Of a DNA stretch of 64,000 nt, positions 3,320-64,000 are shown in pieces; the stretch's first letter is position 1, and every line of letters begins with the position of its first letter. The position numbers were made by a program, and so were the translations under genes. Location of the stretch: assembly GCA_000002445.1 (NCBI GenBank), contig CM000208.1:2304001-2368000 (forward strand), given 5' to 3'. A model generated the notes under the pieces. The model made no database searches. It had not been told where the DNA came from and saw only the letters and a program-made list of their open reading frames with translations. The stretch is from Trypanosoma brucei. Lineage: Eukaryota.

Positions 3320-3443
3320 CACCAGCGCTTGACCTGTACCATAATATCATGCCCCCTATACGCTGCGTGTCGGCACGCCATTCACCAGGATGTATGAATA
3401 CACTGTGTGTGGAAATCCGTGTTTTATTTCATTTTTAGAAAAG

Positions 3444-29200: not shown

Positions 29201-30231
29201 CTTCTACGCTGCAGAATATTCAACTCCCACATTTGTCGGTAGTTGTTACGGCATTTTTTTTTTAAAAAAAAGGATTTGTGACTGCAGTGTGATTTTGTGT
29301 TCAACGGTTAACACATTATTGTTATTGCTATCACCGTCTATATATACAAGTTTTTTTTTGTGTGTGTGTATGTGTGCCGCTTATAGTAGTAAATTCTTTT
29401 ACCTTTTCTATTTATTTTCCAGACCCTTTCACATTTCTATTTCTGCATTTTCTTATTAAGAACAAAATAAAATTACTTTGGTGCTTGCTTTACATTCTTT
29501 TTTCTTTTTGTGGTGCTACATTTTGCCTTTGCGTGCGTGATTCTGTAAGGTAATTTCCAGAAATGGTCGGGGTTAAATTGAGCGAACTCGATCCCGAGGA
29601 AGACGGAGGTGAGGTGTTTTTTTTTTTTTTAATCGCAGACTTCATCTTTTGTGTGATGCTTTTGTTGTAGCCATGAAATGACGTCCCACATTACCATTCT
29701 TTTTTGTTTTCACATGATCGGTAGAAGAGGAGAAATCGTTCTTTTTTTTTCCTCTTTTTCACTAAACAGTTTAATTCGGTGGAGGACGAGAGGGTCATAT
29801 ATGTCTTTGTGTATGCGTGTTTTTTTTTTTGTTTCGGAAGGAAGCAAAATCAAAGTAATAAGAGGATAGAAACTTTTCATAGGCAAACAAAGGAATAATA
29901 ATAATAATAATGATAGTAAGAAGGTGAAGGAGCAAAGGGATGCCTTCACCTTCGTTTGTTTGCCGATTTTTCAGTATTCACTCATTCGTTCACTCATTCT
30001 TTTCTTTTTTTTTCTTTTTCGTACCCACACGCCGTTGTCTTTTGCACTGCCATCGTCATCCCTCCGGTGCCTTATTTTTATATTTTTGGCACGCTTCTCC
30101 TAATTGCCCGCTGGTCCATAACCCGTGTTCAACGCTTTATACTTTCAACTGACCTGTTGTTTGTTCTTTTTGTGTGTCATTTGGTTTTGTTTTACTTCTC
30201 TTTTTGTTTTTTTTCTTTTTCTTTGTTTTTT

Positions 30232-30266
<35 letters not shown>

Positions 30267-32785
30267 GAGCGGTAGCGTGGCCACGCGCGGATATGTTGCA
30301 CGGTTCGGTTGGAAATGAGCAGCTGTAATCACTCTGAGAGGTGTTTATTTTTAAAAGGTTCCGGTAAAGTGCGGGCGCCACATAAATGTGGACACTTTGC
30401 GTGGTGCATGTAATTTCTACGTTCCATAAGGGAGACAGGAGAACATGAGCAACGGCTGTGAAGACAGAAGGGAAATCAATAAGCAACAACAGTAGCAACT
30501 AAAAAGAAAGAAGAAAAAAGAAAAGAAAACAGTAGCAATAGAAAAAACAGTAATCCAACTGTGCAAACATTTGTGTGCACTACATTTTTTTTTTTTTGCA
30601 CACCTCGTTTTTTTTTTCTTTCGCGTCTCTTCTTCCATCTTTTTAGCGAATTTTTATTTTTGTTTGGTGAGGAGGGGGAGGGTGAAGTGGACGGGTTCAT
30701 ATGAAGTGGGTAGCAGGGGATGACATGAAGGATGTGGTATTTTTTTTTATATTTTTCATCTTTTCAGTTTAACCACACTTCTGTTTTACTTCTTTGCCTC
30801 CCCCGTTCCTCCCCTTCTTTTACCTTTTCATTTTTTTTAAAGTCTTAAAAAAAATAATCTTTCACTCGCGTGTAGAAGGGTACTGGCGCTTTTTTCTTTA
30901 TTATTGTGAGGGAAATTTTTGTTCTCTTTTCGTTATTTTCCCCTGTTTTTTTTTGTTTCTTTTTGTATCATTTAGATATACTTTTTCAGTGAGTGGTGCC
31001 CCTCTTGTCCTTTTTTTTAAAAAAATTTTGGCCTGCCGACGCACCCCTAAAAAATGTGCTGAATTTCTCCCTTTTTCACTTGAAGACGCACTTCAAAAGG
31101 GGGGAAAAGAAGTGACGGCACTTCGCCAGAGAGTCTCATCACTGAGTTGTGTGTCTATGTATATATTTATCTATTTATTTTCTGCTTGTTTATTAAATAA
31201 ATGAATAAATAAATAAATAAATATATATATATATATTGCGTGTGTTTGTGTGTGTGTGTGTGTGCGTCTACATTTCCTTTCCCTTTTCTCTCTGTATTTA
31301 CTGGTAACATTTCTCGTGCTTATTGCCGAGTTTCAGCCGACGATGCGGCTGCCGCATCCGAGCAATTCAACGTGGTATTGCCGCGTTCCCTTCTTTTTTT
31401 TTTTCCTTTTACCTTTTTTACTCCTTTCCATTTTTTCTTCCTTTTGCAAATTCATCTACGGGGGTTGCGATCCCTTATTTTTGTTCCTCTTCCTTCATTT
31501 TCTCTATTCTTTCCTCTCCGTTATGCTTTTCTTTTTCTTTTTTTTTTCGGTGGCCGCCAGTAGTACCCTTTCGTTTGATTGCCGTAACATTTGTACCGCA
31601 TCGCCCCTACAGTTCCCCGTTTTCTCCTTCACTTTTTTTCTTTTTTCTTTTTTTTTTTTGTTACCCCTCGTGTAACTGCGGGAACTGCTGCTGCATTCCG
31701 TAGTTCACATGTGTTTGGCTCATTTGTTGGCGGGAGCGGCGGCGATGTAACGGCTATCAGTGGGCGTGTGCGTGTGTTGTGTGATTGCGGGGAAAATATT
31801 TGGCTTCGCACATGCGGGGAAGAAATTATTTGACCCGTTATTACTTTAATACCGTCAAGTTGGTAATGGATGTGCAATCGAAGGGAATGAATGCTGATTG
31901 TGAGGGTGCGTGGGATGTGTGTGTGTGTTTTTTTTTTAATTATTGTTGTTGTTTATTTATTTATTTTTCCGAGCATATGTGCCTTTGTTGTATTTCATAC
32001 TTTAATGTTTCTTTAACCACAATCATATACACTTTGGTGTGGTTTTTATTTTCCTCTGTGACCTTGTGGGGCACCTTACCTCATTTTGTTACTCATTTTT
32101 TTCCTTTTCACCGTGCGATCATTTGTATTTACTGTCTGTTGACTTCGATTTTTTTTTCCTTTTTTTTCCTTTTCGTTGGTGGGGACGCACACCAATATCA
32201 TGGGATATTCCATTCATATGTTTTGGTTCCTGTATTAAATGTTTCACTCCTCATGTTTTTTCCTCCCCCCTTCTCGTCATACTTTGCTACGTGATTCCGC
32301 TCTATATATTTCTTGCACTCAATGGGAAGTACTCATTTTCTGTCTCGTATTTTCTTTTTTATTCTTTAAACACCTGTGGCTCTTTGGAAGGTAGTGTTTT
32401 TTTATAGGTGGGTAGGAAGTCCCAGTTGGACTTGTTAACGGTGGGGATTCCGTTTTTTTTTTCTTTTCTTCCCTTTTCTTTTCCCCTTTCATTAGTTAGG
32501 GGGAGAGCGATATATATATATATATATAAATAAATACATATATTTAACCAGAAACTACATATCACGCTTCTCCTTTGTTTTGATTTTAGACGTAGCCGTC
32601 AGTTTCTGAGGACGGGCCAAAAGAAAGGGGAAAAAAGGAAAGAGGGAAACAATCTCTCCTTCCGTACTCGCGCATTCATTTTTTTTCTTTTTTGGACAAT
32701 TGTTTGGTAGAGGCACTCGCTGTTATTACCATTATTATTGTCATTGCCGTTTCAATACCGCCATTCGGCTTGTGTGACTGTGTGA
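26250..32785. repeat. 6.5-kb low-complexity intergenic block that is strongly pyrimidine (T/C) rich on the + strand. It contains (TA)11 at 27622-27643, (AT)n at 29102-29123, (AAT)n at 29894-29913, (GT)15 at 30234-30263, (AAAT)n/(AT)n/(TG)n at 31195-31266, and (TA)n at 32510-32528.
   Basis: Read directly from the sequence. There are many overlapping low-complexity ORFs in all + frames (F/L/S/C-rich), which are not credible proteins. Confidence 0.8.
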
Positions 32786-48570: not shown

Positions 48571-48659
48571 TATATATATATATATATACTTGGTGAGTGG
48601 CTGTGTGTCTGTTCGTATACGTTTGCGTGGCGCAGCGTGGTACAAACATATATATATAT
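48571..48659. repeat. Two (TA)n microsatellites, at 48571-48588 and 48648-48659, flanking the first ATG of the 1860-aa gene.
   Basis: Read directly from the sequence. This suggests the annotated N-terminus (MAVCLFVYVCVAQRGTNIYIYAL) is probably 5' UTR. Confidence 0.7.
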
Positions 48660-51600
48660 GCGCTGATGAATAAGCTGCTTATCACGCTACATGGCTGTCA
48701 TATAATGCATTCCCCGGGTCTCTCGACCGTTTCCCCTCGCGTATTAATAGTGGTGGATGGTGTGTACGAGTTCGTGGCTCACGGGAAAGCTAGCACCTTC
48801 ACATCCTACTTCAACGAGCTTTTCACAGTTGGTTACATTGACCGCTTAACAGTAGTTGAAGTACTTGTATACAATTCGTCAACCACGGGATGTGGAGACT
48901 ACAACGAACAACAGTTGCTTGGGACATGTCGATTATCCACCGTGTGGTTGTTCCAGGGGAAGACACCTAAGCGGCGACGCCATGTTTTGGCGAACGATGC
49001 CGGCATAGCCGGGACAGTTGAGCTCACTTTGATGCTTGACACCTCTAGGGAAGGTAAAGGCAGCTTTGAAGAAGAGACGAACGAGTGGTGTGCCTCGCGT
49101 TTGGTTCGTTTTCTGATGCACAATGATAAGGGCCGTTTGAGGGATGTAGACCTTTTGCTTTCCACAATGGAGACTGATGGAGCACCACTGAGGCCTCTAG
49201 CATCACCCCCAAAATGCGCAGCTGCTTCCTCTGAGAGTTCGCGAAGCTCTTGCGCGGCTTTTGAAGAATTAATGAGGAACCTGTGCGAGGAGTATCACTG
49301 TGAAGAACCTCCGCAGTGTCGGGTCCGGGTTGCTTTGGAAGGTTGTACCTCTCTTGAAGAAAGTGACAAGCACCACTCATCAAATGTAATTGTGGTGTTT
49401 CGGAGTACAGCCGAGGAGTTCGTGTCGCCGTCAAGGCCGTACACGTCTAACCCTGTCTGGGGATCAACGTTGGGTACGGCCACTTTCGACGTCTGTAACC
49501 CGGAGGACTTTGTGCTTGATGTTATTGTGTACCGCATCACTTCGTCATCGGGTTATGTTGAAGTTGGCCGGGCGCGAATACGTGTTTACATGCTCACAAC
49601 GGAATACTCTTCCAAAAGACAATATTTTATTTTCCGCCATGATAGTTACATAACGCCATGTGTTACAGGCGCCGTCCATATCACAATAAAACCGTTGGGG
49701 TTCGGACTGTCACCGAAAGATGCGGGTGGAACCGCCGACTTGTTCCATGCTCGGTTGAATCGTTTTTTTTACCGCTACGATCGTCGGCGACTGCAAGAGG
49801 TGGATATTATTCTCTACTCTCGCAGGAATAAACTGGATGAATTGATGGACGAATTGGAAGTTTACTACGGTCGTGAACCTGGCACGGCAGTACTGTGTTT
49901 GACTGTGGAGGAGGTGCAATCGTTATTGCATGTTGCATCTACGGACCTCGATGGTGAGGATGTAGTAGTTGTGGTCACAATGGGTAGCCAATCGAACCGT
50001 ACAGACGCTAAGCGAGTGACTGCGAACTCTCGAATAGTTTTTGGCAATGCTTTTCAGATTGACGTTGTTCGAGAAACTGATATGATACGGTTTGAAGTAG
50101 TGAAAGCAGGATGTGAGGACGTTGTGTACGGAAGCGTGGATTTTACTTGCCTCAGAATTCAGAAAGGTGTTGAGAATACCCGGACGCTGTATTTGGTAGG
50201 AGCTGCGGGCACAGAGAAGGCATTTCTAAGTGGAACAATAACAGTTACTTTTTTCAGTGAAAATTTGGGCCAGTCGTACACTGCTGATACAGAATCAGAG
50301 TGCATGTATGCAGGGCGTCTGCGTCGCTATGCGTGTCAGCACGCACCAGAAAAACTGCATCTTGTGGACGTGGCGGTTGCTACTGTTTTCGATACTGAGG
50401 GATTCATGAAGGAAATGAGTCGAGATTATGGCGAAGAGAATCCAACTTATGTGCTGTACATGACAGTATTGGGGTGTCGAAAGCTGAGGAAGCGTTTTGG
50501 GTTTACAATGAGTGCGTACGTTGTCGCTCGTATGGGCGTGGACCGCTACGAGACACGTGTAGTGAGAAATAGTACGAAGCCGGACTACTTTGAATTCTTT
50601 GAGTTTTTTATAGATCAGTTCGCGCACACGGAACTCACCCTAGTAGTTATGGATCAGTACGACATGGGTACCGACAAAGAGGTTGGCCGGACTGTCATTC
50701 CCTTGGAAAATGCAATCCCCGAGCATCAGTACAACCTCTGGTTGCCTCTCATGAAGGATGGGTGCTCCAACTGTGGGTTTGTGGGTGTGAAGTTTGTGGT
50801 AAAGGATCTTCAACTTCGCGACTCGTTGTGTGACCACGTCAAAGCAGGAACCTTCTCAGAGCGTTGCGGCCCTAGACAAGAGGAGCTTACATCGCCAAAT
50901 GAGTCACGACGGGCAACAGGTGTTACCAATTTTTCCAACGCGTTATACCACTTGTTTGGTGGGTGGGGCAAGAGAATATTCCGTGCGCCTCGGTGGCAGC
51001 CGTGGCGGGACGAGTCCAGCAAGGGGTTCTCCAAGCTCAAGGTATCTGAAGGGGTTTCGGGCTGTGAGCATGGATCAGATCACCCAGTGCTTGCGAACAT
51101 CATTGACGACGGCATCTACTCTGCAAGTGAGTTCTTGCGACCCAGAACAGCGAGAACGGCACCCAAGTTATTATCAAATCTTCTTGTTAAACAGCGTGCT
51201 CGTCACACCCTCGTCCCGCAAACACCTAACTCTACCACAGGAAGGCGGTTTTTACATGTACACCTCCACTACTGTGACGACTTGGAAGAGAGGCGTTTAG
51301 TTCCTCCAAGCCCATGTGTGATGCTCGCAACGCTCAGGACAACATACATTTCGAGAACAGCGTTCGAAACTTGTTCACCCCGATATGACGATGTGTTTCA
51401 TTTTCCCATCACTTGCCCAGATGAGGACTTTCTTACCATAACAGTCATGACAGACACGCCGTACGGTAGAAAAACTCTTGGGTTCTGTATGCTCTCCATA
51501 AAAAATGTTTGCTATGGCATGCCTCAAACGCGTTACGTAGCGCTGGTGGTCGCCCCTCATGGATCTGTGGCGCAACAACGTGGTGTGGTGTGTCTCTCCC

Positions 51601-54179
51601 TCCTTAGTGAGAATTTCGGTGTTGCCGTACCGCCACCCCTGGGGAGAGAGTGCAGCTTTCGGCAATGGTTGCAAAGCATCCTCGTGAAGTATGCGCCGAC
51701 GGAGCTGCATCGGCTCGAATGGTACGTAGGCGAGTATTCTGTCAAAGACAACAGAGAGGTGGAAGGCTTCTTCGTTACGAACACATACAAGAGGAGGGGG
51801 AAGGAGGAAGTCAATGTCCATATTTCCGTGGAAACGGTATCAAACTTGCATTGCGATGGTTTGGTCGTTGCCTCTGGTTCGTGTTCGATGACGGCGGAGT
51901 TAGGGGGAAGGACGGTCTGCCGTATCCCCGCTGTGGAGGGAAGCAACGGCTTCTTCAACATTTCAGGGGAATTCGATGTTGTCATCCCTCAACCACTAAC
52001 GCAGACACTGCGCCTTCTTGTGAGCGTCAAGGCAGGCTCAAAACGTAGCCACGGAGAATGTGTCATATCATTCGCGGATGTGCACCGCAAGGCAGCTCGT
52101 GGGCAAGCTCACTACATTGTGGAAGGCCCAGGACTCCCGTCGGCCTCCCCCATTGGTTACGTAACCGTCTCAATGTCCTGTGACCGTTGCGGCAGAGTGG
52201 GGACGCCATCAGATTATGCAGATAGGAGTCTATATACGAGGATGCGTGATTACTATTACTATTACATTCGTGAACGACTTCACGTGGTGAACGTCACTTA
52301 CAGCAAGAAAGTTGATGTGGACAACCATCTGAGAAAGCTGGTGGAGGTGTATGGCCCAGAACCCAGCACCCGTCAACTCCATCTAGAAATTGTGCAGTGT
52401 AATTTTCCAGGCATTGCCGACGGTACTCCCTATTTTGCTCTCGAAGTCGGACTCCTGCAGTATAGGACAGTACCTGTCGCCGACAACCCTGACTCCCATT
52501 TCAAAGGGTCATTTGACATTCATCTTGGATTACCCGAAAAGGATGAACTAAACCTGATAGTGTTTATGAGTCGTGCGTGTGAGTTGCTTGATGTGGAGGT
52601 TGGACGAACCTTGATACCCCTCAGGAACGTCGTGTGCGGGAAGAAAATGCTTTTCCGTCTCCCACTCGTGCGACAGGCTCAGACAAAATATGCTAAAATC
52701 CATGGCTCCGTTGAAGTTTTGCTTTACACCAATGATTTTGGTCTCCCGTCCGAGCAGCAGAGGCACGCTCTGCATCACAGCCTTTGCGATCGAGTACAGT
52801 GGGAGGTTTCTCATTCCAACCCAAAGGACATTCATCGGATCCCCAATTTTCTCGCGGGAATACAGGTGCAAAGCGGGTGGGTTAGCGGTCAAATGGAATG
52901 TAGATCGTTACCTCGGCCTGGCTCAGCGTCAGATAACGCAATCCGTGTTCTCTTTCTTGGGTTTCAATGCCTTCCTGAAAAAGGTGTCTACATAAAAGTG
53001 AAGTTGGATGGCTGTAAGAAGCTTCTACGCACAGGCGACCTGTCGGGGAAGCGGCTTGCTTGCGTCAATGAAGAATTCACCATTGAAGGTTCTGCTGTAC
53101 TGAAAAACACAGTTTTTACGTTGAAGTTAGCAGAAAGTAAGACAAATGAATCGCGCGCGTTATGTTACTGCGACTTCACTCTAGCAGATTGTCCCCCTGG
53201 ATGTGTGTCTAGAAAGTGGCTGCGTCTCTTCGACGACAGGGGCAGGTCTATGGGCCAACTAGGCATTCAGGTGGACGCACCAGCTTCCTCAAGCTCATTT
53301 TTCTCTCGCAGCAGCAGCAACCGGTCCCATCACGACGTGGAGCGAGTCACGGATGATGTCGTGTCACTTCTACAAAAGTACTTGCCGCAAGGGCTGCGGC
53401 GACTCGACCTGATAATTAACCATTCCGATAATGTGAGTGCCGTTCATCGTGTGCTTCGCAAGGAACTGGCACCCAAAGTGCAAGCGACAATATACTGCCA
53501 GGTTCAGCAAATCAGATTGCGAACTCCAGCAAGGATATACCCCCGAGTCGAGTTTTCTTCAGCTGACGAGGTTCAATACGTAACGGAGCGCACATACGGG
53601 GAGTGTATGGTGGACTCAAATACGCCATCCCGAAAGAGAGGGGCCGTTTACCTCCACTTTTCTTCAGTCCGTTTGGATGTGAACGGGGCAGATGCGCTGC
53701 GGATTTCTGTTCATGATGGTGAGGCGAGAGAGGGGTGTGAGAAGTTAGGGAGTGTGGTGCTTTCGTTGCGAGCACTTCTAACCCCGACACTGTACGGCAC
53801 AAATGAGATATTGAGGGCGCCGCTTGTCAAACTGTGGCGTACCGGGATTAAAACACGGGCAGTCGTGGCTGGAACCATAACCTTCCACCTTAGTATCCCT
53901 ATTTTTGAGCGGTACCCAGCGGCGCTATGCCTCTCCGAGATCTTTCCGTGCGCTGTGGACCGAGATGTGATACGATGTTATTTCAACAAAATATCTTCAG
54001 TGCTGCGGTGCCACGATACGGGTTCACTCGTGGACATCCACCGCAAGGTGTTTGAGGAGCTTGTCGTGAAACCAAATGGGTCGGTTGAGCTGCGCAACTT
54101 CCTCCACCAATTAGCGGAACGGTGGGGCGTGGACGTGAGTTCTCTTGACGCCACTTCCCCCGACTGGTCGTTTTGTTGA
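48597..54179 (+). CDS. Giant multi-C2-domain protein (about 1838-1860 aa) built from repeated C2 + ~55-aa helical-linker modules. The first ATG at 48597 lies next to a (TA)n microsatellite. The true start may be the ATG at 48666 or one further downstream.
   Basis: Several C2-like beta-sandwich signatures are present (e.g. YVVARMGVDRYETRVVRNSTKPDYFEFFEFFIDQ...LTLVVMDQYDMGTDKEVGRTVIPLEN and VVVVVTMGSQSNRTDAKRVT...). Recurring linker motifs are DFGLPSEQQR, ELHRLEWYVGEY and YGPEP. It is paralogous to the next gene. Confidence 0.85.
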   Translation: MAVCLFVYVCVAQRGTNIYIYALMNKLLITLHGCHIMHSPGLSTVSPRVLIVVDGVYEFVAHGKASTFTSYFNELFTVGYIDRLTVVEVLVYNSSTTGCGDYNEQQLLGTCRLSTVWLFQGKTPKRRRHVLANDAGIAGTVELTLMLDTSREGKGSFEEETNEWCASRLVRFLMHNDKGRLRDVDLLLSTMETDGAPLRPLASPPKCAAASSESSRSSCAAFEELMRNLCEEYHCEEPPQCRVRVALEGCTSLEESDKHHSSNVIVVFRSTAEEFVSPSRPYTSNPVWGSTLGTATFDVCNPEDFVLDVIVYRITSSSGYVEVGRARIRVYMLTTEYSSKRQYFIFRHDSYITPCVTGAVHITIKPLGFGLSPKDAGGTADLFHARLNRFFYRYDRRRLQEVDIILYSRRNKLDELMDELEVYYGREPGTAVLCLTVEEVQSLLHVASTDLDGEDVVVVVTMGSQSNRTDAKRVTANSRIVFGNAFQIDVVRETDMIRFEVVKAGCEDVVYGSVDFTCLRIQKGVENTRTLYLVGAAGTEKAFLSGTITVTFFSENLGQSYTADTESECMYAGRLRRYACQHAPEKLHLVDVAVATVFDTEGFMKEMSRDYGEENPTYVLYMTVLGCRKLRKRFGFTMSAYVVARMGVDRYETRVVRNSTKPDYFEFFEFFIDQFAHTELTLVVMDQYDMGTDKEVGRTVIPLENAIPEHQYNLWLPLMKDGCSNCGFVGVKFVVKDLQLRDSLCDHVKAGTFSERCGPRQEELTSPNESRRATGVTNFSNALYHLFGGWGKRIFRAPRWQPWRDESSKGFSKLKVSEGVSGCEHGSDHPVLANIIDDGIYSASEFLRPRTARTAPKLLSNLLVKQRARHTLVPQTPNSTTGRRFLHVHLHYCDDLEERRLVPPSPCVMLATLRTTYISRTAFETCSPRYDDVFHFPITCPDEDFLTITVMTDTPYGRKTLGFCMLSIKNVCYGMPQTRYVALVVAPHGSVAQQRGVVCLSLLSENFGVAVPPPLGRECSFRQWLQSILVKYAPTELHRLEWYVGEYSVKDNREVEGFFVTNTYKRRGKEEVNVHISVETVSNLHCDGLVVASGSCSMTAELGGRTVCRIPAVEGSNGFFNISGEFDVVIPQPLTQTLRLLVSVKAGSKRSHGECVISFADVHRKAARGQAHYIVEGPGLPSASPIGYVTVSMSCDRCGRVGTPSDYADRSLYTRMRDYYYYYIRERLHVVNVTYSKKVDVDNHLRKLVEVYGPEPSTRQLHLEIVQCNFPGIADGTPYFALEVGLLQYRTVPVADNPDSHFKGSFDIHLGLPEKDELNLIVFMSRACELLDVEVGRTLIPLRNVVCGKKMLFRLPLVRQAQTKYAKIHGSVEVLLYTNDFGLPSEQQRHALHHSLCDRVQWEVSHSNPKDIHRIPNFLAGIQVQSGWVSGQMECRSLPRPGSASDNAIRVLFLGFQCLPEKGVYIKVKLDGCKKLLRTGDLSGKRLACVNEEFTIEGSAVLKNTVFTLKLAESKTNESRALCYCDFTLADCPPGCVSRKWLRLFDDRGRSMGQLGIQVDAPASSSSFFSRSSSNRSHHDVERVTDDVVSLLQKYLPQGLRRLDLIINHSDNVSAVHRVLRKELAPKVQATIYCQVQQIRLRTPARIYPRVEFSSADEVQYVTERTYGECMVDSNTPSRKRGAVYLHFSSVRLDVNGADALRISVHDGEAREGCEKLGSVVLSLRALLTPTLYGTNEILRAPLVKLWRTGIKTRAVVAGTITFHLSIPIFERYPAALCLSEIFPCAVDRDVIRCYFNKISSVLRCHDTGSLVDIHRKVFEELVVKPNGSVELRNFLHQLAERWGVDVSSLDATSPDWSFC

Positions 54180-55656: not shown

Positions 55657-58600
55657 TTGCAAGTAACCATGAAGGACAGTTATCGCGATCCCAACAGGGC
55701 AAAGAGCTACGCGTCGTCCGCCGATGCCTTTTCTTCTAGTGCGCAACGTTCATGTGCTGTCGGTAGTGCCACCTGGAACGGCTCGCCCTGCGATAATTCG
55801 CCCAGTAGCACATTTATAAGTAGCACCGGAAGAAACACTGGGAAGTTGCATAAGGTGGGGTTTCGGAAAAGAGAAACGACTGCCCCACGTGGTGAAACGC
55901 ATCCGCCGAGGGTCCCAAGAAAGCAGACGCCACCGACTGCGAGGAGCAGGCCGGTGCCCCCTTTGGCGTTGACGCAAACAGGTGCAAGAACAGAACGCGG
56001 TCACAGAATGGATTTGAGGGTACGTGTCGAGGGCGTCAAAAAATTGCTTCCCCCTAATAGCGCATCGAAAGCCCTACCCTCAACCTTCATTATGGTTCAA
56101 ACAGCAACAGGGCGTGGCAAAACGCCGGTAATTTTCAACAACGCTAATCCTCCTTTTAACGACGAGTTCGTGTTTACCGTTAGAGATCCCAAATTAGATG
56201 AAATTACGGTTGTATTAGTCTCGCACACACCATCTGGAAACAAAAAATTGGGACAGTGCGTTCTTTCTCCTGGAAATCTTGTGTGTGGCGAAGAGAAGAG
56301 GCGATGGGTTTCTATTGTCCGCCATCCTGGAACAGATCAAGCTCGCGACTACGCTCCCATGCTACTTAGTATGTATACTGAAGACTTCGGCCTTCGGTGT
56401 GGACCATCAGAAGCGAAAGAAAGTGAATTCCGCGAAAAGCTTCGTGCGCTTCTTAAAAACAACGCACCACGGGAGCTCCACCGTCTCGAGTGGTATGTGG
56501 GAAGTTGCGTAGGTGACTATGATGGTGCTTTTTCTCAGCTGTGCTCAAAGTATCGCAAGTCAAAGGGCACACCTGCGGCGTTTCAGCTTGTCATTAACGC
56601 AGTCTCTGACTTGACCGATGGTAATGGATCACCAAGCGCTTGTGAGACGTGCTGCGTGAAAATTTACGCGGGTCGGGTGAAACGGGTCACCCCAATGGCC
56701 TTGTATCGATCCTCGGCAGTATTTAACGAAGTCTTCAACCTGTCATTAGATGACCCCTTGTCGTCTGGAATAACTCTCTGCGTCTGTTCGCCACGCGGTA
56801 AGATTGGTGAATGCGTTGTCTCTCTGAGAGGGATCCAGAAGGGCGTCGCGAAGGAGCGCACAAATTCTCTTGTTTATGCTGCTGGGACCGGGGATGCAAG
56901 TCTCTGTGGAACCATTTCCTTTACCCTTTACTCACAGACGTTCGGAGTGGAAAATCCCATTGAAGAGGCAGAAGAGAACGCCAGGCGTACTCGGCTGCAG
57001 AACTATCTGTGGAATTATCTCCGAGATGACCTACATCGTCTAGACCCCATTCTATACTCCATCACTGACGTGGATTCCTTCATGAGTGTGTGGACGCGCA
57101 CGTACGGTCCGGAGCCCCGACAACACCTTCTACGGCTCCGAATTAAAAATTTGAGGCTCCTGACCAAACTGAAGAGTCCCGAAGAGTTTACGGTCGTATT
57201 ACGTACAGGACCAAATGCATATCGAACTTCCTGTGTTCGCTACTCACAAGACTTCAGATTCTGTGATGAATTGGTGGTCAGTGTGTGCACTCCATCCGCC
57301 GCCGAGTTCACTTTTATTGTGGTGAAAACATCGGACGTACACGAGGTAGAGATGGGTCGGGCCACCGTGTCCTTTGCAGATATTCCGCAGAGCTCTGTAT
57401 TCAAACGTGATATAATCATCTATGAGGACGCCTTACAGGTCGGCTCCAAAGACTTTGGTACGCTTTTTATTGAGGGGATTACGAACGACTTTGGTCTGCC
57501 GTCGGAAACCTTAACTCCTGAAAGGAGAGAATACTACAGACGACGTGTCGCATCGATTTTGTCCCGCTACAAACCGACTGAGGTATACCGTTGTGACTAC
57601 CTTCTTGGCACCCACTCGGGAATGGAGGAGCAGCTTGTGAGGCGTTTATCAGAGGAGTACGGCCCCGAAACCGGTAACGCGCACGTCAATATCCAAATTT
57701 TGGCAATTAATGACTTCATGCTCTCCTCTCCCTGCTACGTTAAGGTATACGTGGATGACGTTCAGGTACTTAGAACAAAGAGCCACCGCACAGCCCTGAA
57801 TATGCAGTTTGATATATCCCTGAACAACTCCGCAACGCTGCAGATAGAGAATCCCCTCCGCTCGCTACTGAGGTTTGAGTTGATGGAGCCTCGGAGGTTT
57901 CTGCGATCCCGGGTTGTGGGCGTGGCAGAGTTAAGCCTGGTCAAGATGGTACCGAATGAGAAGAATGTGTACCGGCTTCCAGTGTTTAACGCTGAGCGAA
58001 ACGGAGAGGTTGGAACTCTGAGTGTGGAAATAGAATCACCAAGTCTGAGGCACGACGTGTCAGCCATTTTCGACACTCCCCGCGAAGAAGATGACGCCGA
58101 GCTATTCGAAAATGTAATGAAAGATGTAACAACTCTGGTAAGCAAGTACTGCCCTCAGAACTTGCCCCATGTCCAGCCGATGGTGGCCAAGGCAGCGTCA
58201 TTGAGGGATGTCCACCGCGAGCTTAGGGACAAGTTCACACCAAAGCGGGTTGCTTTCACTTTTTACGTACATATTGACAAGCTGGACCTATCGAACCGCG
58301 AGGACATTGAGGCGTATGACGAGGGTCTTATTTCTGTCGAGGCTTACTTCATGAACGAGCGTGTTGTGCAGCCAATGAAGGTAAGTGATGTAAGCAAAGC
58401 AAGGGCGAGTAAGTTGTTTCCCGAAATTCGTTTCGATATCGTTCACCCACACTCATCAGAGCCTGACTGTAGCTTGCCCATACTTGAGATCGTGATGCAC
58501 AAAAAGAACTATAGTACCTTCAAACCCCTTCTAGCTGTTACGAGGCATGGCACTGCTGCTGCAGCGAAACCTCTGAACGTACAAACAACAGAAATGGGCC

Positions 58601-59214
58601 GTGTGGTTCTCTCGGCGCGGGCCCTTCTAACAGAGTGCATGTACTCCCTTGGAGAACCGGTTACTGTAGGTCTTGTCTCTTCAGGGGAACGCGCTCCACA
58701 GGGAGGTACCGTGTTTGGGGACATCGAAAGCTGTCAACGTGCCTACATTGGCGACCTAACGTTGCGCGTGACTGTTCCTTCATTTGAAACCATACCGCGA
58801 TGCTTACAGTTTAGCTCTCACGTCACACGAGATTTTCAACAGGATTACGTCCGTTATCACGCTGACCGAATCTTCAGTCTGTACCGAGCTCACGATCCAT
58901 GGAAGCTGCGTGAATTTTACTACTTGCTCTTCGAGAGGGATGTGGCTTTGGGCAAGTGGCCTCGATCACTACATAATTGGTTGGTAAATTGTATCAAACT
59001 GTATGGACCAGAGGCCCCTGGTACCTATGGACCGCCTCCCAAGCTTCGTTTGGGTTTGAAGGAGTGGGATCAGCAACGAGTCAATAGAACGACGGCGAGT
59101 ACTGCGTGCACATCAAGCGGGTATAACACAGCTCGAGGAAGCAGCTCCGCATTTCCTTCAAACGCATTCAGCGGCAGCGCCAGGCGTTCCCGGAACGGCG
59201 ATCATGGACAGTAG
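55657..59214 (+). CDS. Multi-C2-domain protein (1185 aa), a paralogue of the upstream 1860-aa gene. It has an N-terminal S/R/P-rich disordered region and at least 5 C2-like domains, each followed by a helical linker.
   Basis: The first C2 is MDLRVRVEGVKKL...TFIMVQTATGRGKTPVIFNNANPPFNDEFVFTV...ITVVLVSH. Shared motifs with the upstream gene: ELHRLEWYVGSC, TRTYGPEP, EEYGPETG, NDFGLPSE, TEDFGL. Confidence 0.85.
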   Translation: MQVTMKDSYRDPNRAKSYASSADAFSSSAQRSCAVGSATWNGSPCDNSPSSTFISSTGRNTGKLHKVGFRKRETTAPRGETHPPRVPRKQTPPTARSRPVPPLALTQTGARTERGHRMDLRVRVEGVKKLLPPNSASKALPSTFIMVQTATGRGKTPVIFNNANPPFNDEFVFTVRDPKLDEITVVLVSHTPSGNKKLGQCVLSPGNLVCGEEKRRWVSIVRHPGTDQARDYAPMLLSMYTEDFGLRCGPSEAKESEFREKLRALLKNNAPRELHRLEWYVGSCVGDYDGAFSQLCSKYRKSKGTPAAFQLVINAVSDLTDGNGSPSACETCCVKIYAGRVKRVTPMALYRSSAVFNEVFNLSLDDPLSSGITLCVCSPRGKIGECVVSLRGIQKGVAKERTNSLVYAAGTGDASLCGTISFTLYSQTFGVENPIEEAEENARRTRLQNYLWNYLRDDLHRLDPILYSITDVDSFMSVWTRTYGPEPRQHLLRLRIKNLRLLTKLKSPEEFTVVLRTGPNAYRTSCVRYSQDFRFCDELVVSVCTPSAAEFTFIVVKTSDVHEVEMGRATVSFADIPQSSVFKRDIIIYEDALQVGSKDFGTLFIEGITNDFGLPSETLTPERREYYRRRVASILSRYKPTEVYRCDYLLGTHSGMEEQLVRRLSEEYGPETGNAHVNIQILAINDFMLSSPCYVKVYVDDVQVLRTKSHRTALNMQFDISLNNSATLQIENPLRSLLRFELMEPRRFLRSRVVGVAELSLVKMVPNEKNVYRLPVFNAERNGEVGTLSVEIESPSLRHDVSAIFDTPREEDDAELFENVMKDVTTLVSKYCPQNLPHVQPMVAKAASLRDVHRELRDKFTPKRVAFTFYVHIDKLDLSNREDIEAYDEGLISVEAYFMNERVVQPMKVSDVSKARASKLFPEIRFDIVHPHSSEPDCSLPILEIVMHKKNYSTFKPLLAVTRHGTAAAAKPLNVQTTEMGRVVLSARALLTECMYSLGEPVTVGLVSSGERAPQGGTVFGDIESCQRAYIGDLTLRVTVPSFETIPRCLQFSSHVTRDFQQDYVRYHADRIFSLYRAHDPWKLREFYYLLFERDVALGKWPRSLHNWLVNCIKLYGPEAPGTYGPPPKLRLGLKEWDQQRVNRTTASTACTSSGYNTARGSSSAFPSNAFSGSARRSRNGDHGQ

Positions 59215-60846
59215 TTTGCCGGTTGGTTCCCACAGGAAATGGGCAGTTTTGGGGGGAGATTGTGGCTTATGAGTATGCCAGAACGGGTGCGCCACGATGG
59301 AGAAATAACATTAGAAAATCCTACGCCGTCATCCATATATGCGTATGAATGTATATATGTCTGTATAAAAAAAAAATGGGGTGGATGATGCTAGAAGATT
59401 GAATGAGAGATGTAAGACAGGCAGTGTAGGCGAAGCGAGGAGGGCAGGCGAGAGGGTGTGCTCGCACTGCACCCCTGTTTGTGTTCACACTTGTAGTGTA
59501 TGTATCTATATCTGCGACAAATGTACGAATTTTAAATTTCTGACTTTACAGTAGCGCCTTGATGCCTTTTTGGAGTGGAGTGCGCAGGTGAAAAAGAATG
59601 GGGAAGTTGAATGCGGTGGAAGTGCACTTGATGTGTGTGCCTGCGCATACATGTGCGGATGTGGATGTGCATGTGAGAGGTGGTGCGTGGCCGCAATCAG
59701 GATGCTGGAGCGTTTCCCGTTATTTTATCATCCTCTAGGGGAACTCTTTTTTTTTTTTTTTGCCATGCTTCGCATTCGCTATGTGGAATAAGACCGCCAG
59801 TTTACCTTCTCGGTATACTTCACTACCCTTTAGAGCATATGGGTAACCAGCTGAGGATGCACGGGCGAGCTCATGGTTTTGTCCATTTCCCTAAATTGAG
59901 GGTGGATGGGAAAACCAGTTGTCGAATCCAATCTCTCTTTTCTCCCCTCCCCCCCCCAAGTCAGTCCGCTGCGGCGGCACTCAAAATGCAAGTAGCATCA
60001 CGTATGACCTTCTGTTTTCTTCCTTTTTTTTCCTTCAGTTTTTTTTTCCTCCGCTATATGTTCACTTTTTTTTTGTGTGTGTGTGTGCACTGATTGACTC
60101 CGGTAGTGGTGGTTTCATTGAAGCATTTATTCCGTATTTCCTCCTCCTTTCGCTTTGTCAGATCCCTGGTCCTTCAGCGCAAGAACTAAACCGCACCATG
60201 TTTCCCGTTGCGCATTGTTTTTATTGTTTTGTCGCTTGCACTCTCCCTTGTATAGTTTTGTTTGTTTTTTTTTTTGTTTTGTCTCCTTCGCCGCTCCATG
60301 ACCCTTTTCCCCCTTTCTGAATGTGCTTTGCGACTATGGGAAACGAAAGTGTGGGAAATGTACAGCAAAATACGACAGAGTGGTACGTTTAGAAGGAAGG
60401 AAATGGAAAATGCAACCTGTGAGAAAAAGGGGGGAAATGTGCACGACAAGGAAGGAAGAAACCAAGGAGAAGTTGCCTTCATGATAGAAAACTGCTTGCT
60501 ACACGTTACGGATATCTTTTTTAATACTACAATGAGCTACCGAACATGTGTATAAGAGCATCATTTTTCTTCCTGTATTATCAGCTGTTGCGCATCTGAT
60601 GTGATTCTACCCTAACCTCCTTCATTATTTTCTTTTCTTTAGTCACTGATCCTACTTCCTCTGCATCGAGGTTGTTATTTCTGTCTTAACTAATCAACTG
60701 CTCGGGTACTGCGGCCACTCGGGCAGTGCAACACGTGTAAACGTACATAAGCAAATACATTCTTTCGTATATATATATATATATATTCGTATAGTTGTTG
60801 AAGCGGACCTCTTCCTATAGCTTTGTAGGCCAAGAAGGTAGCAAAA

Positions 60847-62559
60847 ATGTATCACTACGAGTACGATGACGACCACTCAACCAACCTCTCGCAAGCAATT
60901 AACGCCAAGTTGATTACGCGTAGGGGTATAACAACAGACAGCCCAGATCCCATTACTCCGGTTTTTTCGTCGACCGCGCCAACTCGCTCATCAACTGGAC
61001 TAACGACTGAATGGATACGACATCAAAAGCTTAGCGGAAGGGCTGTACCCCCGACCCTTGATACTCTAAAGGGGACAGGTAGTGGAAGGAAATACAAGAG
61101 TGTCACAAATTCCCAAGAAAACAATGTGGACCCAAACAGCATTAACCGCGGCACTTTGCTAGTTAACTCATCCTACTCGGCACCTTCACCAAGATATAAC
61201 CACGTCTCTTCAGTGGTAAAAAAGCTGATAGAAGGGAGAATAACGCCCCAAGAGGCGCGTCGTGCAAGTTCCTCTCGTCGTGGCAGCTCACGAACCACCC
61301 GACTGGTTGCCAGTAGCCGATTCGCTCCTGCCGATAGGCCATCAAGCGCCCCGAAACGTCTTCCGATGGGCAGCGGTAGGACTGGTGGGCTGCTGCCACG
61401 TCTAAGAATATCGTCAACACCACACATACCCGTCCGCACGCAGCAATGGATCCCTTCAAACTCAGCAAAACCAGCGACGGCGGAATGCCAAAAAAACATA
61501 TCGCCACGAGGTCCGGCAACCACGCAGTCATCGGGCAGCTCACGAAGGTTAAACATGTATCAAAGGGTGCCACTATCACGACAATGCGACTCTTTTCCGA
61601 GGAAACCAACAACTGTGGAGGAAAAACCGAAGCCCCCTCAGCCATTGTTCAGTCGGGTTCCGAGATGTGCGGCGGATATTCCAGATCATCGGAAGCCCTC
61701 TCCACGACACGATGTACAGTCAAGAAGGCCGTACGTGCCGCAGTCAGGACGTGAGGTACCGAAAGCGCATAAGACACCACTCTCCAGGGCATCCAGTTCG
61801 CCGAAATACAACAGTGCCCGGAGGAGGTACGTGCAGGACAAACAAACCAACGAAACATCTACTATCAGCGGAAGGCAACGAGTTCCTGTGAGTGCAGTAG
61901 ATGTAGGAAGCAGGGAGAAGGCTAACGTCAGCGAAAGGCAACGAGTTCCTGTAAGTGCAGTAGATGTAGGAAGCAGGGAGAAGGCTAACGTCACTGAAAG
62001 GCAACGAGTTCCTGTGAGTGCAGTAGATGTAGGAAGCAGGGAGAAGGCTAACGTCACTGAAAGGCAACGAGTTCCTGTAAGTGCAGTAGATGTAGGAAGC
62101 AGGGAGAAGGCTAACGTCACTGAAAGGCAACGAGTTCCTGTGAGTGCAGTAGATGTAGGAAGCAGGGAGAAGGCTAACGTCAGCGAAAGGCAACGAGTTC
62201 CTGTAAGTGCAGTAGATGTAGGAAGCAGGGAGAAGGCTAACGTCACTGAAAGGCAACGAGTTCCTGTGAGTGCAGTAGATGTAGGAAGTAAGGAGCAAGA
62301 AGACGGACGAGTCACCGCAATTTCTTCGGACTCGAGAGGCGCATTAAGTCAGACAAAGGCGATGGAGACACAAAAAGTCGTCGATCCGTTGTCAACAAAA
62401 GATATAATTTCCCACGACGCGGCTGGTCGTCCCAAACATAAATCTCTTAATGGTGGTTTAGTGATACCACAGGTGGAGGGGATTAAGTCATTACTGCTTT
62501 TTGATATCAAACCACCGAAACTGAGCGAGACTGGCGCTGTTGCCGCCACTGTCGGTTGA
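60847..62559 (+). CDS. S/R/P-rich low-complexity protein (570 aa) containing 6.5 copies of a 21-aa tandem repeat ERQRVPVSAVDVGSREKANV(T/S).
   Basis: It is a + strand ORF whose reading frame is maintained perfectly through the 63-bp repeats. The composition resembles trypanosomatid repetitive proteins. Confidence 0.65.
   Translation: MYHYEYDDDHSTNLSQAINAKLITRRGITTDSPDPITPVFSSTAPTRSSTGLTTEWIRHQKLSGRAVPPTLDTLKGTGSGRKYKSVTNSQENNVDPNSINRGTLLVNSSYSAPSPRYNHVSSVVKKLIEGRITPQEARRASSSRRGSSRTTRLVASSRFAPADRPSSAPKRLPMGSGRTGGLLPRLRISSTPHIPVRTQQWIPSNSAKPATAECQKNISPRGPATTQSSGSSRRLNMYQRVPLSRQCDSFPRKPTTVEEKPKPPQPLFSRVPRCAADIPDHRKPSPRHDVQSRRPYVPQSGREVPKAHKTPLSRASSSPKYNSARRRYVQDKQTNETSTISGRQRVPVSAVDVGSREKANVSERQRVPVSAVDVGSREKANVTERQRVPVSAVDVGSREKANVTERQRVPVSAVDVGSREKANVTERQRVPVSAVDVGSREKANVSERQRVPVSAVDVGSREKANVTERQRVPVSAVDVGSKEQEDGRVTAISSDSRGALSQTKAMETQKVVDPLSTKDIISHDAAGRPKHKSLNGGLVIPQVEGIKSLLLFDIKPPKLSETGAVAATVG
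61870..62295 (+). repeat. Near-perfect 63-bp tandem repeat of about 6.7 units with a strict two-unit (126-bp) higher-order alternation of gtg and gta.
   Basis: The units gaaaggcaacgagttcctgt(g/a)agtgcagtagatgtaggaagcagggagaaggctaacgtca(gc/ct) were read directly from the sequence. The third-position g/a alternates in every unit 1 to 7. Confidence 0.95.
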
Positions 62560-63121
62560 GAGCGTATGTGTTCCATTACATCTTGGTACGTGTCTTCCAA
62601 GTGTAGCGTTTGTGTGTAAACTTTGCATTCAGTTTGGCGCAGAGCAGTTCAGTTCTTCCTCACCAAGGCAATTAATTTTGGTGACAGTTGGCAGTGAGTC
62701 TGGAAAGGGGGGAGGAGTGATGGAAAATCTCGTGGAACCTCCCACGATAGTACCAAATGAGAAGTTGAAATTTATTTTTTGGATACGGTGGGCAGTCCTT
62801 CCGCCGCTTCAACGCATGTGTGCGTCATCATGTATATGTGTATATATGTATTTTATTCGTACGGCTCTCCTTACTCACCTACACGTTTTTTCCCCTTACC
62901 GCCATATTTTGTTTCACTGGCACTTAGGGATTTCGTTTCCCCCCTCAACTCGAGTGTAGGGGGCTGTTGTTATTTTTTCCGGTGTTGTCTATTTTTAATT
63001 TTTCTATATTTATTCTTTTTACACCCTTTTGTTTCCCTTCACTTTCCCTTTGAAGTATGGTTTCTTTGAGTTTGTTTAAACTGCTAAAGTTGAGGAACCA
63101 GTGCCCACTCTACCAAAGTGA

Positions 63122-64000
63122 ATGTGGCGTCCAGCTGAAGTGAACGCTAATATCGGCACCCCACCGCATAAAGTATCTTCAATACCCGGTTTGGACGCGG
63201 GATTGGCTCCACTATGTGCAACAATGTGGGCCGGTGGTTTGTGTCCAACAAGGGACGTGACATTGTGGGGATTCGGTGATGGTGATGGTGTGGGTGGGGA
63301 ACAGCAGTTGCGTAACGTACAGCAGCACAGCGGTCCTTCTCCCTGTGCTGTAAAGGAAGGAGACGAAGTGTTGATGTATGCTCGTCCGCTTCCTTCAACT
63401 GCGAATGAAGAAGAGGATGAAGATGGTGCCGTAAGATTCGCTCAGTGGTGCACTCCCATAGAGCGGAAACACGCCTCTGATGCCGGAGACTCCAGTCAGT
63501 GTAGCATGACCGGTCATAAGGCACGTGCAGCGCTGGCGATGAAACGACACCACGGCGACCCCGGTGCTCCGACAAAATTACCCGAAAGTAGGGCATGTAT
63601 TTTTAGTGATGCTGATGAACTTACTGTTCCGTTTGCTAAGCGGTATCGGTCTTTTCAGTTGCAGGGTGTGGATGATGGTGACTCTAACAAGGTGAACGGC
63701 AGTAGCGTGCTAACTCCCTGTGATTCGTCTAATCTATCCCACATTACGCCACTGGATGAGGGTGGAGAGTCGATTGACCTTGCGAACCACATGTCAGGTC
63801 TCATATTAGCGGCATCCCCAACCCCAAAGAAACTGGATTTTGTCACTCCTCTTGAAGATGGTGAAGTGCACACGGGGGACAATGGCACATTTAATGCTCA
63901 GGATGGGGAAAATAGGCCACTCAGCGCATGTAGCAGCACCCATCGCCCCCTTCGGGGGAAGAGATTTCTTGACGATTTGGACCCGAACGTGGGAGTTGCA
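63122..64000 (+). CDS. Partial CDS that is open at the window's 3' end (at least 293 aa), encoding a hypothetical protein. It is absent from the supplied ORF track because no stop codon is reached.
   Basis: I translated frame 2 by hand from the ATG at 63122, just after the TGA at 63119-63121, to position 64000 and found no stop. The translation reads MWRPAEVNANIGTPPHKVSS...FLDDLDPNVGVA. It is on the same strand as the cluster. Confidence 0.45.
   Translation, partial: MWRPAEVNANIGTPPHKVSSIPGLDAGLAPLCATMWAGGLCPTRDVTLWGFGDGDGVGGEQQLRNVQQHSGPSPCAVKEGDEVLMYARPLPSTANEEEDEDGAVRFAQWCTPIERKHASDAGDSSQCSMTGHKARAALAMKRHHGDPGAPTKLPESRACIFSDADELTVPFAKRYRSFQLQGVDDGDSNKVNGSSVLTPCDSSNLSHITPLDEGGESIDLANHMSGLILAASPTPKKLDFVTPLEDGEVHTGDNGTFNAQDGENRPLSACSSTHRPLRGKRFLDDLDPNVGVA

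What the first reader, a model, noticed from the sequence alone, without database searches (positions are those of the whole stretch)
61870..62295. Higher-order (126-bp) near-perfect tandem repeat encoding a 21-aa unit: candidate repetitive antigen and hotspot for copy-number variation
There are seven units of 63 bp with more than 97% identity. The third codon position g/a of Val alternates strictly in every other unit, and agc/act (Ser/Thr) varies at the unit end. Together this indicates that a 2-unit block is being amplified. Tandem amino-acid repeat proteins in T. cruzi-clade parasites are frequently immunodominant B-cell antigens. Repeats this perfect are usually collapsed or expanded in short-read assemblies, so the true copy number may differ.
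Basis: partly seen in the sequence, partly recalled or inferred. Interest (0 to 1): 0.5.

Follow-up and report, generated by a model that had tools for sequence, protein, structure and literature searches.

The report
REAP-1 gene's known 21-residue repeat
The tandem repeat is real, but it is the long-known 21-amino-acid repeat domain of REAP-1, a mitochondrial RNA-binding protein of Trypanosoma brucei, and what stands out is that its copy number differs between strains and even between versions of the reference gene model.

Summary
Window 61870-62295 holds six full 63-bp units plus one partial unit, in frame within a 570-aa ORF (60847-62559, + strand).

[quoted passage not shown] The window is therefore T. 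brucei chromosome 10, not a T. cruzi-clade genome.

Copy number varies:
- This window has 6 full units plus a partial one.
- T. b. gambiense and T. b. equiperdum have 3 plus a partial one.
- The 1998 cDNA protein has 7 plus a partial one.
- The TriTrypDB 8.1 model of the same gene has a theoretical mass that equals this ORF plus exactly one more unit.

The T. congolense orthologue has no repeat, so among the sequences available the array is seen only in the T. brucei group.

The GTG/GTA alternation is real, but it occurs only in TREU927. A 252-bp (4-unit) period fits the array at least as well as 126 bp.

The antigen idea has no support here. REAP-1 is an imported mitochondrial protein that mass spectrometry detects, and it is annotated as RNA-binding.

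AlphaFold predicts two beta strands per unit, with moderate confidence at best and no match to a solved structure.

Verdict: already known, low interest.

The parts
60847..62559 (+). [quoted passage not shown]
   Evidence: ORF listed. It is 100% identical over all 570 aa to P0003 = XP_823194.1/EAN78366.1/Q38A04, named RNA-editing-associated protein 1 of T. brucei brucei TREU927. The review table links REAP-1 to Tb927.10.9720.
61870..62295 (+). Tandem array of 63-bp units encoding the 21-aa REAP-1 repeat (aa 342-482 of the ORF): six full units plus a seventh that matches for 42 nt
   Evidence: TRF: period 63, 6.7 copies, score 785. Unit table, self-identity by shift, and 6 pattern matches against 0 in shuffles.
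61870..62121 (+). First 252-bp (4-unit) block. Unit types are a (GTG..AGC), b (GTA..ACT), c (GTG..ACT), b
   Evidence: Shift 252 gives 3 mismatches in 174 positions, all at the array edges (61871; 62037/62039 against the diverging last unit).
62122..62295 (+). Second, truncated block: a, b, c' (partial). It repeats the first block exactly up to the point where the last unit diverges into unique sequence
61186..61269 (+). Best-conserved block of the protein (aa 114-141, SPRYNHVSSVVKKLIEGRITPQEARRASS), a predicted helix. It lies upstream of the Met that starts the 1998 cDNA protein
   Evidence: 22/28 identical to the T. congolense orthologue P0006. AlphaFold gives helices at 115-128 and 134-142, the region with the highest pLDDT of the full-length model (about 65).
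61366..61368 (+). Met174 codon, the first residue of the 418-aa REAP-1 deposited from cDNA (Q9Y0C7/AAD45351)
   Evidence: Alignment A1. This Met is not conserved in T. congolense.
62491..62523 (+). Conserved C-terminal motif LLLFDIKPPKL (aa 549-559)
   Evidence: Aligned with LLLFDVEPPRL of the T. congolense orthologue.

Best explanation
The array is the coding sequence of the 21-amino-acid repeat domain of REAP-1, a nuclear-encoded, mitochondrially imported RNA-binding protein of Trypanosoma brucei. REAP-1 was first found associated with the U-insertion/deletion RNA editing machinery.

Shown here:
- Identity with REAP-1.
- Expression and mitochondrial location, taken from the literature.
- Copy-number polymorphism of 4, 7 and 8 units (counting the partial one) among T. 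brucei-group sequences.
- Absence of the repeat in the T. congolense orthologue.
- Near-identity of the units at the DNA level, with variants shared between non-adjacent units.

Inferred:
- The array arose by amplification in the T. brucei lineage after it separated from T. congolense.
- It is kept homogeneous and changes length by unequal recombination or replication slippage, in register with the 63-bp unit (or multiples of it).
- The TREU927 allele carries a higher-order pattern of 2 or 4 units left by a recent block duplication.

Inferred for function:
- Each basic unit (4 K/R against 3 D/E) folds as a beta hairpin.
- The stacked units form a multivalent RNA-binding surface.
- Unit number may therefore modulate avidity, but it is not critical. 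The protein tolerates 4 to 8 units, and from memory of Hans et al. 2007 the null mutant is viable.

From memory, not verifiable with the held library: Madison-Antenucci and Hajduk 2001 reported RNA binding with preference for pre-edited mRNA and implicated the repeat region.
For: Identity:
- 100% to XP_823194.1 and 98% to Q9Y0C7, both named REAP-1.
- Flanks are collinear and about 99% identical to T. b. gambiense and T. b. equiperdum chromosome 10. The only large difference is 189 bp (3 units) inside the array.

RNA binding:
- The review table lists KREAP1/REAP-1 as 'RNA binding'.

Mitochondrial and expressed:
- Precursor and mature forms are seen on immunoblots, and the precursor accumulates when the import pore is knocked down.
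- Mass spectrometry gives 20 peptides and 47.7% coverage, and the protein is in the mitochondrial reference set.

Copy-number variation:
-.

Lineage specificity:
- T. congolense TCIL3000_10_8630 aligns on both sides of the array but has no internal 21-mer repeat and no significant match to the unit.

Concerted evolution:
- Across strains, all four combinations of the two variable sites exist. TREU927 has GTG+AGC, GTA+ACT and GTG+ACT, while the other strains have only GTA+AGC.

Composition and fold:
- The repeat region has pI 10.75.
- AlphaFold places two 8-residue strands in every unit. Mean pLDDT is 75 for the region alone and about 50 in the full-length model.
Against: - The role of the repeat in RNA binding rests on my memory of a paper the library does not hold. 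Nothing computed here shows RNA binding.
- The AlphaFold models are weak evidence. The full-length model has mean pLDDT 37. The better model was made from a single sequence of perfect repeats, which can produce regular structures spuriously. It has no significant match among solved structures (best E 0.066, TM at most 0.43).
- The copy numbers in other strains come from assemblies I could not check against reads.
- 'Specific to the T. brucei group' rests on one outgroup sequence. The profile search for more distant orthologues failed even to recover the query's own family, so T. vivax, T. cruzi and Leishmania remain unexamined.
Confidence: 0.9

Rival explanations
1. The repeat matters mainly as an immunodominant B-cell antigen. 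On this view the host antibody response targets the 21-aa unit, and the repeat is kept or varied because of that.
For: - Tandem-repeat proteins of trypanosomatids are often serological antigens. This is general knowledge, and titles cited show such screens exist for African trypanosomes.
- REAP-1 was discovered with a mouse monoclonal antibody raised against editing complexes (from memory of the 1998 abstract). That antibody is still in use, so the protein is immunogenic in mice.
Against: - REAP-1 is imported into the mitochondrion and processed there. It is exposed to the host only after parasite lysis.
- None of the 14 papers that hold 'REAP-1' or the full protein name treats it as an infection antigen. 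Those I opened use it only as an editing factor, an import marker or an antibody target, and most of the rest are unrelated uses of the acronym.
- Variation among units and strains is mostly synonymous or conservative (Val GTG/GTA, Ser/Thr). This is not the pattern expected under immune selection.
Confidence: 0.07
2. The repeat is a functionally neutral expansion in a disordered, low-complexity part of a dispensable protein. Slippage creates it and nothing selects on unit number or sequence.
For: - Most of the protein is predicted with very low confidence (mean pLDDT 37).
- The T. congolense orthologue lacks the repeat altogether.
- Copy number ranges two-fold among close relatives.
- The null mutant is viable (title of Hans et al. 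2007; details from memory).
Against: - The reading frame and the amino-acid sequence of the units are kept almost perfectly in all four sequences. The few differences are synonymous or conservative. However, recent amplification alone could explain this.
- From memory, the repeat region was implicated in RNA binding in 2001.
- AlphaFold gives a regular two-strand-per-unit pattern rather than coil.
Confidence: 0.2
3. The particular structure in this window (6.7 units, alternating GTG/GTA) is an assembly artefact, for example a mosaic of two alleles or a mis-joined repeat.
For: - The TriTrypDB 8.1 protein model of the same gene is one unit longer than this sequence.
- T. brucei is diploid, and the two alleles may differ (general knowledge).
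- The other two genome assemblies show no GTG or ACT units at all.
Against: - The array is only 426 bp, and the units have fixed spacing with no indels.
- From general knowledge the TREU927 reference was built from Sanger reads, which are longer than the array.
- A random mosaic would not give a strictly periodic pattern (1 in 35 for the G/A site alone).
- The flanking differences from other strains (T334, S481, S516) show this is a distinct allele and not a chimera with those strains.
Confidence: 0.1

Closest known systems
REAP-1 / KREAP1 (RNA-editing-associated protein 1, Tb927.10.9720; Madison-Antenucci et al. 1998, EMBO J 17:6368)
   Same: It is this gene. The product is 100% identical to the TREU927 protein XP_823194.1. 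It is 98% identical over the shared part to the cDNA-derived Q9Y0C7, with the same 21-aa unit.
   Different: - Copy number is 6 full units plus a partial one here, against 7 plus a partial one in Q9Y0C7.
- Some units end in Thr here, whereas all end in Ser in Q9Y0C7.
- The genomic ORF extends 173 aa upstream of the cDNA protein's first Met. That extension holds the block best conserved with T. congolense.
REAP-1 orthologue of T. congolense (TCIL3000_10_8630)
   Same: Homologous N-terminal two-thirds (aa 11-307, BLASTP E 4e-18) and C-terminal motif LLLFDxxPPxL. Its locus tag also places it on chromosome 10.
   Different: It has no 21-aa tandem repeat and no significant similarity to the unit.
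Tandem-repeat serodiagnostic antigens of trypanosomatids (for example the GM6-type antigens of African trypanosomes and the T. cruzi repeat antigens)
   Same: Near-perfect in-frame tandem amino-acid repeats with variable copy number.
   Different: REAP-1 is an imported mitochondrial RNA-binding protein. I found no serological evidence for it in the held literature.
Beta-solenoid and beta-hairpin repeat proteins with units of about 19-23 residues (for example the functional amyloid FapC and left-handed beta-helix proteins)
   Same: The unit length is similar, and AlphaFold predicts strand-turn-strand for each unit. The top, non-significant Foldseek hits belong to this class.
   Different: There is no significant structural or sequence match (best E 0.066, TM at most 0.43). 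The resemblance concerns only a predicted model of uncertain reliability.

Membership tests
REAP-1 (Tb927.10.9720) of Trypanosoma brucei | Sequence identity with the reference REAP-1 protein along its whole length | tested here: met
   100% over 570 aa to XP_823194.1/Q38A04, and 98% to Q9Y0C7 over aa 174-570 apart from the unit count.
REAP-1 (Tb927.10.9720) of Trypanosoma brucei | Tandem 21-amino-acid repeat domain in the C-terminal half | tested here: met
   Six full units and one partial unit of ERQRVPVSAVDVGSREKANV(S/T), aa 342-482.
REAP-1 (Tb927.10.9720) of Trypanosoma brucei | Same genomic neighbourhood as in other T. brucei-group genomes | tested here: met
   Window 57850-64000 is collinear with and about 99% identical to chromosome 10 of T. 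b. equiperdum and T. b. gambiense. A C2-domain gene lies upstream in all of them.
REAP-1 (Tb927.10.9720) of Trypanosoma brucei | Expressed protein located in the mitochondrion | tested here: met
   By literature look-up only. Mass spectrometry gives 20 peptides and 47.7% coverage, and the protein is in the mitochondrial reference set. Precursor and mature forms are seen, and the precursor accumulates on import knock-down.
REAP-1 (Tb927.10.9720) of Trypanosoma brucei | RNA binding, with the repeat region involved | not testable with these tools
   Listed as 'RNA binding' in the review table and in the TriTrypDB description. The 2001 paper is known here only by its title. The involvement of the repeat is from memory.
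Trypanosomatid tandem-repeat B-cell antigens | Near-identical in-frame tandem amino-acid repeats | tested here: met
Trypanosomatid tandem-repeat B-cell antigens | Recognised by sera of infected hosts | not testable with these tools
   No paper found that reports it. The key screen papers are not held.
Higher-order tandem repeat (multi-unit period) | Identity at a multiple of the unit length exceeds identity at the unit length | tested here: met
   95.9% at shift 63, 97.7% at 126, 95.4% at 189 and 98.3% at 252.
Higher-order tandem repeat (multi-unit period) | One specific higher-order period (126 bp, as claimed) is supported over the alternatives by several complete periods | tested here: inconclusive
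   The G/A site fits 126 bp (1 in 35 by chance). The AGC/ACT site breaks 126 bp and fits 252 bp. Only 1.7 periods of 252 bp are present. The alternation is absent from the two other genomes.

The most novel reading that the evidence does not exclude
The 21-aa units stack as beta hairpins into a solenoid-like, positively charged scaffold. This would be an undescribed RNA-binding fold seen so far only in the T. brucei group. Its length polymorphism (4 to 8 units) would tune how REAP-1 affects mitochondrial RNA stability. In addition, the real protein would start 173 residues upstream of the 1998 model and include a conserved helical block.
Probability: 0.12. Interest if true: 0.4.

Novelty: already known. 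Interest (0 to 1): 0.1.

Why it matters
It matters little for discovery, because the repeat domain of REAP-1 has been in the literature since 1998.

There are three practical points:
- Copy number at this locus depends on the strain, and apparently also on the assembly version or the allele. Peptide-based quantification, antibody epitope counts and size predictions for REAP-1 should not assume one fixed length.
- The array is absent from the T. congolense orthologue. REAP-1 is thus a clean example of a recent coding-repeat expansion in a non-essential RNA-binding protein.
- Conservation upstream of Met174 suggests that the long genomic ORF, not the 418-aa cDNA model, is the real coding sequence.

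Tried and rejected
1. Pfam scans of the ORF, of Q9Y0C7 and of the T. congolense orthologue gave only a sub-threshold TX13_rpt hit (20 bits against a cut-off of 40.3). The precomputed PF18244 tag on Q9Y0C7 was not reproduced.
2. The exhaustive phmmer search returned 18 hits. Apart from REAP-1 itself and the T. congolense orthologue, the six I read (P0005, P0007-P0009, P0014, P0019) are unrelated repeat proteins, such as bacterial LRR and other periodic proteins, that match only the array. The other ten also align only within or around the repeat region. I rejected them all as homologues.
3. A profile search with the conserved N-terminal region (alignment A3) returned nothing, not even the sequences it was built from. 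It therefore says nothing about orthologues in T. vivax, T. cruzi or Leishmania.
4. The apparent 'proto-unit' in T. congolense (KVPTG...SRVKA...DVGDTRTAN) is not significant: 319 of 2000 shuffles score as high.
5. There is no solved structure by sequence and no significant Foldseek match for the repeat model.
6. There are no Rfam families and no tRNAs in the window.
7. The papers of 1998 and 2007 and the Goto et al. 2011 tandem-repeat antigen paper are not held. I did not request the 2001 paper, which is known here only by its title. What I say about their contents beyond the titles is from memory.
8. Exact-sequence look-ups of the window protein, of P0003 and of P0006 in the contig collection found nothing. 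The TREU927 and T. congolense loci could therefore not be fetched as DNA.
9. The minus-strand ORFs through the array (61686-62315 and 61744-62298) are by-products of a stop-free repeat unit. All long ORFs of the window lie on the + strand.

Full report
**Observation**

Tandem Repeats Finder reports a single strong array in the window, at 61872-62295: period 63, 6.7 copies, 96% matches, no indels, score 785. Read in codon register, the units begin at 61870 and then every 63 bp up to 62248. Six are complete. The seventh keeps 42 nt (14 codons) and then diverges, and the neighbouring 63-mers match the consensus at only 13-20 of 63 positions. A 58-nt unit pattern occurs six times, never in 100 shuffles, and nowhere else in the 64 kb.

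The full units match the consensus at 60-63 of 63 positions and differ from each other at 0-4 positions, so mean pairwise identity is 96.8%. The Val codon alternates strictly (GTG, GTA, GTG, GTA, GTG, GTA, GTG). The last codon reads AGC, ACT, ACT, ACT, AGC, ACT.

**What it is**

The array lies in frame in a 570-aa ORF at 60847-62559 on the + strand, the strand of every long ORF in the window. A search of the protein collection returned two clusters, both named RNA-editing-associated protein 1 of Trypanosoma brucei. One cluster member, XP_823194.1/EAN78366.1/Q38A04 of T. brucei brucei TREU927, is 100% identical to the window ORF over all 570 residues. A 2026 review table equates REAP-1/KREAP1 with Tb927.10.9720 and lists it as RNA-binding.

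Window 57850-64000 is collinear with and about 99% identical to chromosome 10 of T. b. equiperdum and T. b. gambiense. The only large difference is 189 bp inside the array. The window is therefore T. brucei chromosome 10, not a member of the T. cruzi clade.

[quoted passage not shown] The paper itself is not held.

**Expression and location**

These points come from the literature, looked up here.
- REAP1 is used as a marker of mitochondrial import. Immunoblots distinguish its precursor and mature forms, and the precursor accumulates when subunits of the outer-membrane translocase are knocked down.
- In the importome study Tb927.10.9720 belongs to the mitochondrial reference set. It was identified with up to 20 peptides and 47.7% coverage.

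It resides inside the mitochondrion, however, which does not favour the antigen idea. None of the 14 papers holding the name treats it as an infection antigen. Those I opened use it only as an editing factor, import marker or antibody target, and most of the rest are unrelated uses of the acronym.

**Copy number**

The four available T. brucei-group proteins differ mainly in the number of units:
- TREU927: 6 full units plus a partial one.
- T. b. gambiense DAL972 and T. b. equiperdum: 3 plus a partial one (507 aa).
- The cDNA-derived Q9Y0C7: 7 plus a partial one.

The importome supplement gives the theoretical mass of the TriTrypDB 8.1 protein Tb927.10.9720 as 64.376 kDa. The window ORF has a mass of 62.111 kDa. 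Adding one unit ERQRVPVSAVDVGSREKANVS gives 64.376 kDa exactly, whereas adding a Thr-type unit gives 64.390.

The curated model of the same strain therefore very probably carries one more Ser-type unit than this window and the GenBank protein. Either the two alleles of the diploid differ, or the assembly was revised. Both readings support the view that this is a length-unstable site, and that the count in the window is not the only one.

**Higher-order structure**

Self-identity of the array is 95.9% at shift 63, 97.7% at 126, 95.4% at 189 and 98.3% at 252. At shift 252 the only mismatches sit at the two edges of the array.

The unit types are a (GTG..AGC), b (GTA..ACT) and c (GTG..ACT), and their order is a b c b a b c'. 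The G/A site fits a 2-unit period, which is 1 of 35 arrangements by chance. The Ser/Thr site breaks that period and fits a 4-unit period. With only 1.7 periods of 252 bp the two cannot be separated.

In T. b. gambiense and T. b. equiperdum every unit is GTA..AGC, a fourth combination that is absent from TREU927. All four combinations of the two sites therefore exist. This indicates exchange between units (or recurrent mutation) and concerted evolution within alleles. The pattern is a feature of the TREU927 allele, not of the gene.

**Origin**

An exhaustive phmmer search of 1.84 billion representatives found one homologue outside the repeat, a 454-aa protein identified as TCIL3000_10_8630 of T. 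congolense IL3000. It aligns with residues 11-307 (BLASTP E 4e-18) and 508-560 of the window protein. It has no pair of 21-mers sharing 9 or more residues, and its middle region does not match the unit better than shuffled sequence does (319 of 2000 shuffles reach the score).

The array therefore most likely arose after the T. brucei lineage separated from T. congolense. The other phmmer hits align only within or around the repeat region. The six I read are unrelated periodic proteins. A profile search for more distant orthologues returned nothing, not even its own input, so it is uninformative.

**How it probably works**

The repeat region is basic (pI 10.75; each unit has 4 K/R and 3 D/E), in a protein of pI 10.7.

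AlphaFold results:
- With a five-sequence alignment the full-length model is poor (mean pLDDT 37). It places two 8-residue beta strands in every unit at pLDDT of about 50.
- The repeat region alone gives the same pattern at mean pLDDT 75 and pTM 0.67.
- No solved structure matches it significantly. The weak top hits are beta-helix and beta-solenoid proteins and a functional amyloid (best E 0.066), and there is no PDB relative by sequence.
- A single-sequence model of perfect repeats can be an artefact, so I treat the hairpin-per-unit picture as a hypothesis.

[quoted passage not shown] The most likely role is a multivalent, positively charged RNA-binding module whose unit number can vary without loss of function. 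[quoted passage not shown]

**Rivals**

- Antigen reading: no positive evidence, and the variation is synonymous or conservative.
- Neutral expansion: this cannot be excluded by computation. It remains the main rival for the functional part.
- Assembly artefact: possible for the exact unit order and count, but unlikely for the array as such. The array is only 426 bp, strictly periodic, and lies on an allele with its own flanking substitutions.

**Side result**

The block best conserved between T. brucei and T. congolense is aa 114-141, RYNHVxSVVKxLIEGRITPxEARxASS, with 22 of 28 residues identical. It is also the most confidently predicted helix. It lies upstream of Met174, the first residue of the 1998 cDNA protein, and that Met is not conserved. 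No other Met lies between residues 1 and 174. The long genomic ORF is therefore probably the true coding sequence, although its acidic N-terminus does not look like a mitochondrial presequence.

**Verdict**

The feature is already known and the mechanism is ordinary: a coding minisatellite in a known RNA-binding protein. Interest is low.

Noticed in passing
window 60847-61365 (aa 1-173 of the REAP-1 ORF), especially 61186-61269: The N-terminal 173 residues are missing from the 1998 cDNA-derived REAP-1 (Q9Y0C7 starts at Met174). Yet they contain the block best conserved with the T. congolense orthologue (22/28 identical) and the best-predicted helix. Met174 is not conserved. The long ORF is probably the real one, although its N-terminus (MYHYEYDDDH) does not look like a mitochondrial presequence.
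   Followed up: partly
window 60847-62559, compared with TriTrypDB 8.1 Tb927.10.9720: The theoretical mass quoted for the TriTrypDB 8.1 model (64.376 kDa) equals this ORF plus exactly one Ser-type 21-aa unit. The curated model and this sequence (which equals GenBank XP_823194.1) therefore differ by one repeat unit.
   Followed up: partly
window 1-4625: There is a head-to-tail array of about four gene copies with a period of 1291-1312 bp (ORFs 48-731, 751-2022, 2042-3319, 3390-4625). The first two copies are 96-100% identical over the repeat segments compared, and the later ones are more diverged. The product has an N-terminal membrane anchor (MLRRIKGISTRKKGGRLYLIVIALLIVVGVMA...) and no Pfam match.
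   Followed up: partly
window 8229-16375: An 8-kb stretch has no ORF of 200 aa or more in any frame. It is richer in G+C (0.49-0.54) and pyrimidine-rich on the + strand (negative GC and AT skew), and sits inside an otherwise gene-dense + strand unit. It contains no Rfam family and no tRNA.
   Followed up: no
window 7626-8228: A 200-aa ORF has a signal-peptide-like start, many Cys residues and a hydrophobic C-terminus, which suggests a small surface or secreted protein. It has no Pfam match.
   Followed up: no
window 48597-54179 and 55657-59214: Two large neighbouring genes (1860 and 1185 aa) both carry C2 domains. The second lies directly upstream of REAP-1, and the same arrangement is seen in T. 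b. gambiense and T. b. equiperdum.
   Followed up: no
window 30160-31965: A cluster of T-rich low-complexity repeats, a (GT)15 run and a (TAAA)10 run lies in the lowest-G+C part of the window (0.39). It is probably a long intergenic region.
   Followed up: no
L002 4025-4276 (T. b. gambiense DAL972 REAP-1 array): The gambiense allele has its own unit variants: GAT to GGT (Asp to Gly) in unit 1, and GAA to GGA (Glu to Gly) at the first codon of units 3 and 4. The T. b. equiperdum units are identical to each other apart from the first codon of unit 1, which is GGA (Gly) in every strain.
   Followed up: partly
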